DNA of 64,000 bases, from NCBI GenBank assembly GCA_043228905.1, contig JBHGNT010000133.1, forward strand, positions 6,402-70,401, read 5' to 3'. This DNA is from Azolla caroliniana (Eukaryota; Plantae; Polypodiophyta). The notes beneath the pieces are model-generated. The model searched no databases, was not told where the DNA came from, and worked only from the letters and a program-made list of their open reading frames with translations. The position numbers and the translations under genes are program-made. This document shows positions 15,375 through 39,159 of this stretch, one piece after another. Every line of letters begins with the position of its first letter. Positions within the stretch are counted from its first letter, which is position 1.

Positions 15375-16926
15375 TGTTAAGATAAAGAGATACAATAACG
15401 AGCTTACTTGGAGGACTTGACACTGGTGTTGTACCCGAACGTTTGACAAAAGTGAAGGGCTTCATAATATACTAGGTTGTGGAGCATTCTAGGGTTTTCT
15501 AGAATGTTTCGGGAAGTTCCAAAATGTTCTAGGGTTCTATCCACATTCGATCATTTAGATCATAACCCAACCAATCCCCCAAATAACATAGTTTATTGCA
15601 TAGGATCTTGGAATTGAGAACCGTTGCAACTTCATATTCAGGACCATTAGCAAGTCAAAAAGGAGGTGGCAGTGGTATCATACGATTTGGAATAGTATTT
15701 GTGGCACAAGGTTCGAGAAGGGAACAATGAAATACTAAGTGAAGTCGCATATGGGAAGGGAGATTGAGACGGTGTCGTGATGATTCACGGCCATAGTGAG
15801 AAAACCGGGGCTATTGGGAATATCAGCAGGGTGCGACGTGAACACTCACCCTTGTATAAACATGTAAGATAATCGGGGCGCCTTTATGGCGCCTAACAGG
15901 AGTTAATTCGAGACAAATAATCTCATGTAAAGCAGGATTTATCCCACATTGTTACGCATCCCTCTCCTTGTTCTATAAAAGGGAGGGAGTGTCCCTTGTA
16001 AAAGGGTTCCCCATTGTGGGTTCCTTCATAATAGTATTGTTTCTCCTCTTGTGATGGCTTTCTTCCTTTCTATCCCTCGAAGTAGGTTTTTGTTTCTTTT
16101 TCTGTTTCCTGCTAGGGTTTTGTTTGTTGTGCGTGAGCAAATGCGTGTGTTCATTGCAGCTGACAGTACGCGGACTATCTTCTCTCTCTCTTTCTCTCTG
16201 TTTGGTTGCTTCTCCACCCCGCGTCTCTCTATGTGGGTGTCCTTGTTGTCCCGCGTTGTTGCTCAGGTTGAGCCCGTGTGCTAGAAGGTTTTGTGTAGAA
16301 AACCCCTCTCTGCCGTGCAAGACCCCACTCGCGATGGCGAGCCTGTGTGCTCCCGATTGGCGGCTTGGCGACGAGAGGCCGTTGTTCAGACTGTGTGGAG
16401 CCGGCTTTGAGTCGAACGCCGCGTACGTATGTGGGTGTGTGTGTTCTCGGGAGGCAGTGTAGGTCCCAGAGGTCTTGCTTGCGGGTGCGCGTAGTGAGCC
16501 GGTGTAGGGGTGTCGGTCGTAACCGGTGTATATATGTGTGCGCGCGGGAGTGGTTAACCGGGCCGTGGCCCGTGCTTCTTTTGAGGCCCTTCTACATATG
16601 GGCAGGAGGGTCGTGCAAATAAGCGCGCCCTCTTCTTTCAAGAGTCTGAGTCGCTTCTGGAACGCATCTAGAACCGTCTAGATCGGTCGTTCCCAAACAC
16701 CATCCGGAACCGATCCGACCGGCAACGCGACAGGCTCTGGAGGAATCGGCCTTCTGGTTACTCCTCCCCTCCTGATCCATGACCTCGGTGGTCCTGCCCG
16801 GATCCGACATGCAAGCGCGGGATTCCACGACAACGGAAAGACGCCTCACTAATTTTGAATGAGTTCCTAAATGGTCCTAATTGTTGATAATCGAGTTTAT
16901 CACAAGTTCGTTCTCATGTGTCGACA
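15375..16926. mobile_element. Old LTR-like repeat that hosts the solo LTR at 15773-16832
   Basis: Ends TGTTAA...TCGACA, compatible with a CpG-decayed TGTCGA inverted terminus. Shares the ttctagggttttcta.aatgtt block with 20570-20710. TSD not clean. Confidence 0.4.
15773..16832 (+). mobile_element. Solo LTR (1060 bp) of the TGTCG...CGACA clade, 4-bp TSD ACGG
   Basis: Starts TGTCGTGA and ends CCACGACA; ACGG at 15769-15772 and 16833-16836; TATA-like CTATAAAAGGG at 15973. The 3' motif ctcct.gatccatgacctcggtggtcctgccc matches the U5 of the elements at 20972 and 31509. Confidence 0.85.
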
Positions 16927-17725
16927 TAATAACCATACATGATCGTCAATGTGAAACATATGTTGAAATCTGGTTATTTGGTGTATTATTACGTCATTAG
17001 CTCTTTGGATAATATGGAAAGCGAGATGTGATGCCATTTTTGATAATGCTCACATACCTCTCCGCACCATGCTTATTGAATTCTGGCTATTATTTGTCCA
17101 TACACTATGTGATCAATATGATGATCAACAGGGTTCAGTTGATGTTCTATGGCAACGTCAAGTGGCCTTTAAGAAACGATGGCAATGACTTCACTTATTT
17201 TGCAATACAACTTTTGGTCCGAGGTGGAATTATGCCATACCTTCTTTTTTCTTTTTTTTTCCATAAAAATATGCTCCATTGGTATTAATAAAAAGCCAAA
17301 GGCAATATACAAATAGTACATAATACTGTTTCCTCTACACAAATACATATTATAAAAAAACTACATTGTTGCCAATAACACCTTTGCTAGTAGAGCACAT
17401 TTTTGCCATACCTTCTTTTTTGTTGCATAGCTCATAGTTTTTGCTCCACTCGTTTCTTATATGATATCATCAATTTGATTAGATGTTTGTATTAGCCCTT
17501 GTATCACAAAGACGTTCGCGTTTAGAAGTGGAAGGATCACACATTACATTATTAGATTCCTTTTATACTTTGCGATTTTAGGCAATTTTCAGAAAGTTGG
17601 TACACCAGTATCACATGTCGTAAATAACATATAAAGTTTGCTACTTTTTTGAGACTTAACAAGTGTCAAAATGATCATTTCTCACAATTCAGTACTTAGT
17701 ACCGAATTCAAGTTTCGAATTGTGA

Positions 17726-17841
17726 TGTTTTCATCAATATCGAATTCAGGTTTAAAGTTTTTCTTTTCCGAAAAAGAAAAATTGAATAAAATAAAAACTT
17801 TGAACCTGAATTCGATACTAAGAATCCAATTGTGATGAAAA
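17726..17841. repeat. Inverted repeat / probable MITE relic
   Basis: Arms 17738-17762 and 17793-17817 are reverse complements with 1 mismatch in 25 bp; outer pair tgttttcatca / tgatgaaaaca. Confidence 0.6.
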
Positions 17842-36472: not shown

Positions 36473-36490
36473 TTCACGTCGGGTTCACCA
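36473..36490 (-). other. Primer-binding site complementary to the 3' 18 nt of plant tRNA-Trp
   Basis: The plus strand reads TTCACGTCGGGTTCACCA, matching the plant cytosolic tRNA-Trp 3' end plus CCA as I recall it; 4-nt spacer from the LTR. Confidence 0.85.
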
Positions 36491-37173
36491 AAGATGTCGC
36501 GTTGTTACGCGCGTGCGTGGAGAAGGGCGGAACCACGGGGGTCTTGGACTAAGGAGAAGGGGAGAAGGAATAGGACTTCGGAATGGAGCTTAGCACAAGA
36601 AGAGAAAGAATGAACAAGAGGAAGATGGAGGCCAAATGCTCAACAAGATATATTAGAACCGAAAACCGATTACAAAATGGCGGCCGCGTAGGCCGCACCG
36701 AACGACTATGATAAACCCGAAACCCTAATCCGACGAAGAAGGAAAGAAACCCTAACTAAGGAACCCTAAACGAAATGGTATACCTCACTCACACTCAAAA
36801 ATAAGGCAACCCCCACAATGGTGCTCTTCCTCTCCCTTTATAGCACAAGGAGGGAAGACCGTTACATAAAGGTGCTACAAAATATCCCCTTTCAATCAAT
36901 GGGGATATTTCCCTTGATTTTAGGGGAGGTGGGAAGGATGGGTCTTAACTCCCACCTCTACACGAACTACTATGTACCTATCTCTCTCTCTCACGTGGAT
37001 GTGCGCGCAAAAGCACATCACCTTTACACTTTACAAATCCTAAGGTGCATTTCTAGCACCACACTTATCACTATCGACAAATAGAAATACAACATCTTGA
37101 TGTGCAACGTTGCACATCGTGGGTTTGCTTACTTCGCTCGGTTTTCCGCCTATGGACGAAAATCTTCACGACA

Positions 37174-39159
37174 ACGGTCAATTAGATCGTCAGCCCGGGG
37201 CAATGGGTACGAATTCTTGATCGTCACTTTATTCAAGCGTCGGTAATTAATACACATACGCCATGTGCCCTCTTTCTTTTTAACCAAGAGAACCGGTGCA
37301 CCCCATGGAGATTTACTATAACGTATATAACCCATTCGTAAATAGTCCTTAAGTTGCTTAGCTACCTCATCCTCTTCAGATCGACTTAGGCGATACGGAG
37401 GTATACTAATGGGTGCAATGCCAGGTACAATATCTATACGATGGTCTATATTACGTTTAGGAGGTAAACCATCGGGTAGTTCACTCGGAAAAACATCACG
37501 AAAATCGTTTACGATTTCATCAAGTTGTTTTTGTTCAAAATATGTTAATTGACCCGAGACATTATCGATATTGTAAACGTGAATGTCCGGATCAAGTACA
37601 CAATAAAATAACGTAGAACAAGACAACTCGGATATTGATGGACACGAGGAAACAATCGAGAGGGATTGTTTTGTTACACATTGAATAAAATGCGTACAAT
37701 CGTTGAGTACAAAAGAAATGGAATGGCGAACCCAATCAATAAATAAAGAAGAGCTTTTATTATAAAACCAGGGATAACCCAGTATTACATCGGTGGTACT
37801 AAGATTCATTACATGGAAGTCTACTTCCTCTATATATGTATCAATAGAAATTCCTAAAGAATGAATCGCCCCGTTGATGTGTTGTACTCTTCCATCAGCC
37901 AAGTGCACCGTGTAGGTGTGATCACTTACGGTGGGTTGGATTCCCCATATCTGTACCAAACGATCATTCACAAAATTGTGTGAGCTTCCCGAATCAAATA
38001 AAAATTGTACGGGAGATCCATTGATATACCCGTTTGCACGTAGTAAATCATTGGGACCCAATACATAATGAGGGAAAGAACATTGACAATTACTCAAATG
38101 ATGTGTATAGACCTGAAGGACATTAGGAATCTGACCTTTATGGTCTGTAGCTTTAGGTTTGGCGTCGTGCTCTTTTCGTTGGAGCTTACGACATTGCTCT
38201 TTTGTATGACCCTTCTTTTTGCAGAATACGCAAAAAGGATGTTGTCGCTTATAATTGTGATCCATGAATTCGTTGGGTGTCTTGCGTTTCCCAACGAATT
38301 GCGACTGCTTAGTCCCGGGCGCTTCGTTGGGTTTGTTATGGTCCTTCTTCGAAGTGCGTTGATAGCGAAGAACTATCTCAACGGCCTCTTCGAAGGATTT
38401 TGGATCCTTATCGTGCACTATCCAGTGATAGTCCGAATTGGGGATGCCATTGACAAAACAAGCTATTAACCAATTGTCCCCTTCTAGACCCGATTTTTGG
38501 ATTTGGGTTCTAGCATGGTGGACATAGTCTTCTAGCGAGGAAAATTTCCTGCTAGAGAGGTTCATTAAAGCTTGTGCTGCCTCGGTTCGAGAGGGAGGTT
38601 GTAGAAATTGACCCTTGAAAACTGTGACAAAGTCTGTCCAGGTCTCGGGCAATCTCCCCAAAGTTCGGAGCCCACGCCACCAAGCGGCGGCCTTACCCCC
38701 TAGTTCTCGGCCGACATATGCAATCTTCGTACTATCTGGCGTGGGATAGAGCTCAAAATGAGACTCCCATCGGCCCAGCCACGTGCAGATTGCTTCTTCG
38801 GTTCTTTCCTTTTTATCTCCCGTAAATGGCTTTACGACAAATGATGGTTCACCCTGACGCTCATCAGGTCTATTAATCTCATTTTGGAGACTAATGACTC
38901 GTGCCTCGAGAGCACTTTGAGATTGCCGAAATTCGGTCAACTGCTGCGCGGTTGAACTAAGGAAATGTTGTACTTGTAAAATATACGCCTCAATGGACAT
39001 TGTCCCAGGAGGATTTCCTTGAGGTCTTTCCGCTTGAGCGGAGGGCATCGGGTCGTTATTCTGAGCCATTGAATGATTATTTCTGGCAAAGAAATAAGAT
39101 AAGCTCAGACAAATAGTCATAACATCTTGTCGTGGTGTAAACATATCATGGGCAAACAT
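37174..39159 (-). CDS. Gypsy gag-pol 5' part: Gag, CCHC knuckle, aspartic protease, RT N-terminus
   Basis: [71 protein letters not shown]. Start at ATG 39159 or 39069. Confidence 0.9.

What the first reader, a model, noticed from the sequence alone, without database searches (positions are those of the whole stretch)
15769..37177. Three independent LTR insertions of one clade all sit on a 4-bp target centred on CpG: a candidate CpG (possibly methyl-CpG) targeting retrotransposon system
Seen: the solo LTR (15773-16832), element A (20972-24291) and element B (31509-37173) have different LTR bodies, so they are separate insertions. They share TGTCG...CGACA termini and a U5 motif. Their TSDs are ACGG, ACGT and ACGG; reconstructed empty sites are gag-ACGG-aaa, gtg-ACGT-tat and gag-ACGG-tca. 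The 4-bp length is confirmed twice internally: by the in-frame restoration of the host RT, and by the empty paralogous site at ~24470-24486. CpG is visibly scarce in the background DNA, and all three landed inside other repeats. Established: most plant LTR retrotransposons make 5-bp TSDs with weak sequence preference (as does the solo LTR at 45289 here); sequence-specific 4-bp targeting is known for Drosophila errantiviruses such as ZAM. Inference: the helper integrase reads N-CG-N, perhaps methylated CpG, and so steers insertions into silenced TEs. With n=3 this is a hypothesis.
Basis: partly seen in the sequence, partly recalled or inferred. Interest (0 to 1): 0.85.

Follow-up and report, generated by a model that had tools for sequence, protein, structure and literature searches.

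The report
Known CpG-targeting Phygy-type retrotransposons
Three jumping-gene insertions in this plant DNA each sit on a four-base target centred on CG, and their relatives do the same, but they likely belong to the Phygy lineage, for which this habit was published in 2019, and nothing here shows that they sense DNA methylation.

Summary
A solo LTR and two gag-only elements each carry a 4-bp TSD (ACGG, ACGT, ACGG). The CpG preference is general for the clade. In metagenome loci of relatives, 23 of 28 raw and 22 of 24 curated LTR flanks are NCGN, against 0.044 CpG per base nearby. Flank consensus in two sequencing runs ends ACGT and CCGT. It is not new: Neumann et al. 2019 list the moss lineage Phygy as 4-bp TSD 100%, NCGN, tRNA-Trp PBS. 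The window elements show that TSD and a tRNA-type PBS (Trp by recall), and their gag matches a Physcomitrium DUF4100 protein. A tree with reference Phygy RT could not be built. Autonomous relatives have a plain integrase: no chromodomain, aRH or methyl-binding domain was found. Methyl-CpG reading is untested and unsupported. Small additions: a V-CG-B refinement (5' T or 3' A in 1 of 44 outer positions, post hoc), relatives in liverwort and fern, and gag-only families. The scan noted NCGN targeting before in a likely fungal genome (e1-10582392).

The parts
15769..15772 (.). Left TSD copy of the solo LTR (ACGG)
15773..16832 (+). Solo LTR, 1060 bp, TGTCG...CGACA; U3 start 80% like B's over 35 nt, U5 motif like A's
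16833..16836 (.). Right TSD copy of the solo LTR (ACGG)
20968..20971 (.). Left TSD copy of element A (ACGT)
20972..21584 (-). 3' LTR of element A (613 bp)
21585..21628 (-). Conserved 3' internal motif ending in a G-rich purine tract next to the 3' LTR of A (87% like B's)
22205..23733 (-). Gag-like ORF of A, broken over several frames; 43-54% identical to B's gag; no pol
23722..23739 (-). Primer-binding site of A, one mismatch to B's (tRNA-Trp type by recall)
23745..24291 (-). 5' LTR of element A (547 bp; 93.4% to the 3' LTR, ungapped)
24292..24295 (.). Right TSD copy of element A (ACGT)
24475..24478 (.). Empty paralogous site in the neighbouring copy of a roughly 190-bp tandem duplication; reads ATGT (CpG decayed)
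29786..31504 (-). Host Ty3/gypsy element, RT-RNase H-integrase part downstream of B
31505..31508 (.). Left TSD copy of element B (ACGG)
31509..32187 (-). 3' LTR of element B (679 bp)
32188..32231 (-). Conserved 3' internal motif and G-rich purine tract of B
32199..36452 (-). Intact 1417-aa ORF of B: gag capsid-like N-terminus, long Gly/Glu/Ala/Arg-rich repeats, Trp/Arg-rich tail; no protease, RT or integrase
36473..36490 (-). Primer-binding site of B, 18 nt, exact complement of a CCA-ending plant small RNA filed as miR894 (tRNA-Trp 3' end by recall)
36495..37173 (-). 5' LTR of element B (678 of 679 identical to the 3' LTR: very recent)
37174..37177 (.). Right TSD copy of element B (ACGG)
37178..39168 (-). 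Host Ty3/gypsy element, gag-protease-start of RT upstream of B

Best explanation
The three insertions are a solo LTR and two gag-only LTR elements with 4-bp CG-centred target duplications, likely non-autonomous members of the Phygy-type Ty3/gypsy lineage, which would be copied and inserted by a helper whose plain integrase likely reads the target DNA sequence itself. Shown: 4-bp TSDs, CG core, shared LTR termini, PBS and 3' motif, no pol in A or B, and autonomous relatives with the same cis signals and an RT-RNase H-H2C2-core-GPY/F pol. Inferred: host tRNA-Trp primes reverse transcription, and helper pol acts in trans. Also inferred: the integrase cuts with a 4-bp stagger symmetric about a CpG, prefers V-CG-B, and does so through contacts or bending at the catalytic core and GPY/F domain, not through a methylation or chromatin reader. 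Landing in other repeats would follow from where CpG is left: young repeats keep it and old background has lost it.
For: TSDs and boundaries. 22 of 24 curated flanks NCGN (23 of 28 raw), background 0.044, binomial p 3.5e-28; at the neighbouring offsets CG occurs in 0-4 of 28. Loose ends exactly at the LTR terminus: 38 contigs with consensus ending ACGT in run X5 and 25 ending CCGT in X3, overall agreement only 0.41. Phygy is published as n=186, 4 bp 100% NCGN, tRNA-Trp 81%, no extra domain (PMC6317226 passages and Additional file 5). The gag profile hits P. patens A9U5C3 (E 1.4e-17, DUF4100), Riccia and Adiantum proteins. Helper gag carries DUF4100. Helper pol shows no chromodomain, aRH or methyl-binding family. 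64 of 67 pol-length relatives have a GPY/F-like motif near the end, median 68 residues from the C-terminus. CG-centred 4-bp TSDs also occur in Ginger1 (CCGG, CCGT/ACGG; PMC2836005), and ZAM integrase binds CGCGCg directly in vitro (PMC2527525 abstract).
Against: No RT-RH-INT tree with reference Phygy sequences could be built: the REXdb files were too large to read, and no named P. patens pol was among the best 120 hits. The gag tree is unresolved at the backbone. The Trp identity of the PBS is recalled, not shown by a call. Helpers come from metagenome contigs, not from this genome (none held), and are about 7.3 kb, just under the published Phygy range of 7.7-10 kb. Most metagenome loci are from one series of assemblies, and each flank was seen on one side only, so TSD length there is assumed. 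Two of 24 flanks are not NCGN (ATGG, AAGT). Runs X18 and X16 showed no loose end at the terminus. Nothing here tests how the integrase reads its target.
Confidence: 0.8

Rival explanations
1. The integrase prefers methylated CpG, read by the catalytic core or GPY/F domain without a separate reader domain, and so steers insertions into silenced repeats.
For: B sits in a very abundant repeat family whose CpG sites show C>T and G>A variants. The paralogue of A's site is decayed to ATGT. Phygy is reported nested in Tcn1 and enriched at centromeres in a liverwort (PMC12885004 passage).
Against: No reader domain in helper pol. Flanks of relatives keep CpG (o/e 0.90; biased by assembly). ZAM shows CG-core targeting by direct binding in vitro, in a fly that by established knowledge lacks CpG methylation. 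Most CpG in plant repeats is methylated anyway (established knowledge), so the association is expected without any reading.
Confidence: 0.1
2. Two-step targeting: a host chromatin factor tethers the integration complex to heterochromatin, and the integrase then picks the nearest V-CG-B.
For: Nesting in repeats for A and B; published nesting and centromere enrichment of Phygy. The short acidic tail after GPY/F is common among relatives and could bind a host protein (inference).
Against: No recognisable tethering domain. Selection against genic insertions and the CpG distribution give the same pattern. The solo LTR's flank was not shown to be a repeat.
Confidence: 0.08
3. Same mechanism, different label: the elements belong to TatI or to an unnamed sister lineage that shares the 4-bp TSD and Trp-type PBS.
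For: TatI is also listed with 4-bp TSD and tRNA-Trp (n=4). The window's gags form their own long branch (100/100, length 1.12), and no reference tree was possible.
Against: TatI has an aRH between protease and RT; none was found in that stretch of 3 helpers at E up to 10. NCGN is stated for Phygy alone. Gag homology to a P. patens DUF4100 protein.
Confidence: 0.1

Closest known systems
Phygy, non-chromovirus Ty3/gypsy lineage (Neumann et al. 2019, PMC6317226; passages and Additional file 5 read)
   Same: 4-bp TSD, NCGN target, Trp-type PBS (recalled identity), no extra polyprotein domain, polyprotein filling the interior in the helpers, gag homology to a P. patens protein; nesting in chromovirus-type elements as in PMC6911290 (passages).
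   Different: Described there from P. patens; also named in a liverwort (PMC12885004, passages). Here relatives are in Riccia and Adiantum and the host plant group is undetermined. A and B are gag-only, and B's gag has long repeats. Outer bases are not free (V-CG-B). Helpers are slightly shorter than the published range.
TatI (same paper)
   Same: 4-bp TSD, tRNA-Trp PBS.
   Different: Defined by an aRH between protease and RT, not found in the helpers; no NCGN preference listed.
Ginger1 DNA transposons (Bao et al. 2010, PMC2836005; passages read)
   Same: Gypsy-type integrase with GPY/F; 4-bp TSD CCGG or CCGT/ACGG; TGT termini.
   Different: DNA transposons with inverted repeats, no RT, gag or LTR; found in animals.
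ZAM of Drosophila (PMC2527525; abstract read)
   Same: Ty3/gypsy integrase that picks a CG-rich target by its own DNA binding.
   Different: Longer target CGCGCg; insect element with an envelope gene (recalled).

Membership tests
Phygy | 4-bp TSD | tested here: met
   3 of 3 in the window, only k=4 fits; empty-site contigs in 4 of 4 runs
Phygy | NCGN target motif | tested here: met
   3 of 3 window; 22 of 24 curated, 23 of 28 raw flanks; consensus in 2 of 4 runs, no loose end listed in the other 2
Phygy | PBS complementary to tRNA-Trp | tested here: inconclusive
   18-nt PBS is the exact complement of a CCA-ending plant small RNA (PMC5846777 Table 3); that it is tRNA-Trp is recalled, not shown by a call
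Phygy | No chromodomain, aRH or extra ORF in the autonomous element | tested here: met
   Pfam on 3 helper pols and 4 relatives, ORF lists, tails; L060 is cut at its 3' end
Phygy | RT-RH-INT clusters with reference Phygy elements (the primary definition) | not testable with these tools
   Reference files unreadable; only gag homology to P. patens A9U5C3 and an unresolved gag tree
Phygy | Length 7.7-10 kb with the polyprotein filling the interior | tested here: inconclusive
   Helper interiors about 5.7 kb, filled by gag-pro and pol, about 7.3 kb with LTRs for L013; A and B are 3.3 and 5.7 kb and non-autonomous
TatI | aRH domain between protease and RT | tested here: not met
   No RNase H family in the 230-242 residues before RT in 3 helpers at E up to 10; position
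Selgy | tRNA-Ala PBS with 4-bp TSD and no NCGN preference | tested here: not met
   NCGN preference present; PBS is not Ala type by recall
Chromovirus (Galadriel, Tcn1) | Chromodomain at the integrase C-terminus; tRNA-Met or self-priming | tested here: not met
   PBS differs from the Met-type PBS of the host element

The most novel reading that the evidence does not exclude
The integrase of this lineage senses 5-methylcytosine at a V-CG-B target with its core or GPY/F domain alone. That would make it a retrotransposon that reads DNA methylation directly to steer itself and its gag-only parasites into silenced DNA across seed-free plants.
Probability: 0.1. Interest if true: 0.75.

Novelty: new member of a known kind. 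Interest (0 to 1): 0.3.

Why it matters
As it stands, it modestly extends a known lineage. It shows the CpG-targeting habit in very abundant, recently active families outside Physcomitrium, sharpens the motif to V-CG-B, and supplies intact helper integrase sequences. These make the open question (does this integrase care about methylation?) testable in vitro. If it did read methyl-CpG, that would be a third route to heterochromatin targeting beside chromodomains and host tethers, and a possible tool for mapping or targeting methylated DNA.

Tried and rejected
No whole genome was held, so no genome-wide two-sided TSD count. Pfam found nothing on B's or A's ORFs. Rfam and ARAGORN found nothing in the window. 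Two pattern scans of viral contigs gave 0. AlphaFold of helper pol gave pLDDT 49, pTM 0.28, too poor to use, so no fold search was run. The gag tree left 5 of 15 inner branches open. Cluster look-up of 10 unnamed pol relatives gave no organism names, so the host plant group stays undetermined. Four of 28 flank rows were dropped as not genomic flanks: L010 (PPT side), L011 (cut PBS), L100 (PBS read backwards), L103 (tandem copy inside an LTR); three were non-CG and one CG. Loci showing PPT-LTR-PBS in a row, including the junction in L013, were treated as likely assembly collapses and not as tandem elements. I did not call the host of B Tcn1: its PBS is Met type, whereas Tcn1 is mostly self-priming. 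The PPT-less, dual-tRNA reading noted for other elements of this genome does not fit A or B, which have a G-rich purine tract at the 3' LTR. Paper searches for methyl-CpG-reading retrotransposon integrases, for DUF4100 with retrotransposon and for fern CG targets returned nothing on point; passages of PMC12810828, PMC6839031, PMC12405890, PMC9002660, PMC13469084, PMC7466625 and PMC6852985 were read and added nothing on targeting.
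Full report
Observation. 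The three insertions are at the stated coordinates. The solo LTR (15773-16832), element A (20972-24291) and element B (31509-37173) start TGTCG and end CGACA. They are flanked by ACGG, ACGT and ACGG; of repeat lengths 3-7 only 4 fits. B's LTRs differ at 1 of 679 bases, and A's are 93.4% identical over ungapped columns, so B is very recent and A older. The LTR bodies share only short motifs. These also give the orientation: solo on +, A and B on -. Three checks back the 4-bp length. The interrupted host RT has the same codon phase on both sides of B. The paralogous copy beside A has a single 4-mer, ATGT. In each of 4 public runs (3 studies at most), 17-29 contigs of the host family pass from B's left flank directly into its right flank. 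CpG is scarce in the window background (o/e 0.51), but near B it is not (1.44). With local rates, three central CGs have a post hoc chance of 1.7e-5.

Anatomy. A and B have a PBS after the 5' LTR and a conserved 3' motif ending in a G-rich purine tract before the 3' LTR. B's PBS is the exact complement of an 18-nt CCA-ending plant small RNA filed as miR894 and mapped to gypsy elements in PMC5846777 (Table 3 passage). That this is the 3' end of tRNA-Trp is my recall. B holds one intact 1417-aa ORF and A a broken relative, 43-54% identical over the gag part. Neither has a Pfam match or any pol. A stored homologue looked like retrotransposon gag by language-model features, and its best structural neighbour was a Streptophyta cluster with DUF4100, under the tool's bar for naming. 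A profile of 12 gag sequences gave 516 hits at E up to 0.001. Among 10 long hits looked up were P. patens A9U5C3 (E 1.4e-17), two Riccia sorocarpa proteins and an Adiantum nelumboides cluster. Of 23 hits scanned, 6 carry DUF4100. B's host is a Ty3/gypsy element with Ty3 capsid, protease, RT, RNase H and integrase zinc finger and a Met-type PBS. The host plant group (moss, liverwort or fern) was not determined.

Is the CpG preference general? I defined LTR termini only by their internal side (PPT or PBS junctions), then read the 4 bases outside matching termini. Of 28 raw rows, 23 were NCGN; CG at the other 13 offsets listed occurred in 0-4 of 28. Four rows were not genomic flanks (three non-CG, one CG) and were dropped. 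Of the remaining 24, 22 are NCGN, one is ATGG and one AAGT, against 0.044 CpG per base in the same flanks (p 3.5e-28). They fall in 11 terminus clusters. Each flank was seen on one side only. Independently, contigs breaking off exactly at the U5 end gave a consensus ending ACGT (38 contigs, run X5) and CCGT (25 contigs, run X3), with overall agreement of only 0.41; runs X18 and X16 listed none there. A post hoc refinement: a 5' T or 3' A fills 1 of 44 outer positions against 37.6% around flank CpGs (p 2.7e-8), so the motif is nearer V-CG-B. The window's three sites fit it.

The helper. Seven distinct loci of 121 held a pol behind the same U5 motif and PBS. L013, L070 and L060 encode gag-DUF4100-protease followed by an overlapping RT-RNase H-H2C2-integrase ORF. 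L013 also holds a gag-only ORF region 82-89% identical in DNA to parts of B's interior, and L089 is 96.7% identical to part of B's LTR. So these loci are close to the window's families, though not from its assembly. Pfam showed no chromodomain, aRH or methyl-binding family in 3 helper pols and 4 relatives; the C-terminus is a weak SH3_Tf2-1 (GPY/F) match. In 64 of 67 pol-length relatives a GPY/F-like motif lies a median 68 residues from the end (maximum 194). The pol profile aligns in one stretch with Ty3 Gag-Pol over positions 228-1137. Named relatives of RT-RH are many Riccia proteins (56-71%) and one Adiantum protein (68%); no P. patens pol was named among the best 120 of 212. The structure model was too poor to use.

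How it most likely works. Shown: shared cis signals, 4-bp CG-centred TSDs, gag-only passengers and autonomous relatives with a plain integrase. Inferred: tRNA-primed reverse transcription by helper pol in trans, and a symmetric 4-bp staggered cut about a CpG, chosen by the integrase's own contacts with or bending of the DNA. Precedents are Ginger1 transposases (TSD CCGG 75%, CCGT/ACGG 24%; PMC2836005 passages) and ZAM integrase, which binds CGCGCg in vitro (PMC2527525 abstract). Nesting in repeats needs no methylation sensing: young repeats are where CpG remains. For the methyl-CpG idea, B's host family shows C>T and G>A variants at CpGs and A's paralogous site has decayed. That is expected of any plant repeat, and flanks of relatives are not CpG-depleted (o/e 0.90; short-read assemblies favour young repeats). 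I could not measure methylation.

Comparison with what is known. Neumann et al. 2019 state that Phygy elements have an insertion preference for NCGN, unlike other plant lineages (PMC6317226 passage). Their table lists 186 elements, 4 bp 100% (NCGN), tRNA-Trp 81%, no extra domain (Additional file 5, read whole). PMC6911290 (passages) reports 4-bp TSDs with GC-rich centres, 4 bp as the commonest TSD for Phygy, and Phygy in Tcn1 as the commonest repeated nested pair. PMC12885004 (passages) names Phygy in a liverwort. The window's elements work like Phygy on every feature tested. Formal membership rests on an RT-RH-INT tree that I could not build, because Additional files 1 and 3 were too large to read. 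Those files may also already hold the termini and the V-CG-B bias. TatI shares TSD length and PBS type but needs an aRH before RT, which was not found. Searches found no paper on a methyl-CpG-reading retrotransposon integrase, and one search listed 18 papers naming Phygy, of which I read passages of five.

Verdict. A real, strong target preference, correctly spotted from three sites, but already published for the lineage these elements most likely belong to. New here are only the motif refinement, the wider set of relatives and the gag-only families. Interest 0.3; the methylation-reading case stays open at about 0.1.

Noticed in passing
window 32199-36452 (-); also L013 7395-10691, P0003, P0030: The gag-only elements keep a long open ORF: capsid-like region, then 231-318-nt repeat units, then a Trp/Arg-rich tail with WRIGW-like repeats. 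Their gags form a separate long branch from the helper gags, so these passengers may package themselves with their own capsid (compare TR-GAG elements, recalled).
   Followed up: partly
window 36473-36490: The PBS is the exact complement of the abundant plant small RNA filed as miR894 (PMC5846777), which suggests that miR894 is a tRNA 3' fragment able to pair with this lineage's PBS.
   Followed up: partly
L044, minus strand, position 60: An LTR start lies directly in the CpG of the clade's own conserved 3' internal motif, i.e. likely an insertion into a relative.
   Followed up: no
window 36462-36545 and 32175-32236: Summed contig depth of 2e5 to 1.3e6 at the LTR termini with PBS and 3' motif in the deeper runs points to a very abundant clade; depth is not a copy number.
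   Followed up: no
window 21380-21445 and 24095-24160: By eye, A's LTRs hold a tRNA- or SINE-like stretch with a B-box-like motif; ARAGORN and Rfam found nothing.
   Followed up: no
window 16833-17190: The right flank of the solo LTR translates to a stretch resembling the end of a LINE ORF2 by eye; no Pfam hit.
   Followed up: partly
window 45289-45643: Possible old solo LTR with a 5-bp repeat GTAAC but a TA end, inside a LINE-like remnant.
   Followed up: partly
window 57289-58083 (-), 48079-50040 (+), 42878-43642 (-): Host genes: an EF-Tu-family GTPase segment (GUF1/LepA-like by recall), a SOUL haem-binding protein and a decayed PPR gene.
   Followed up: no
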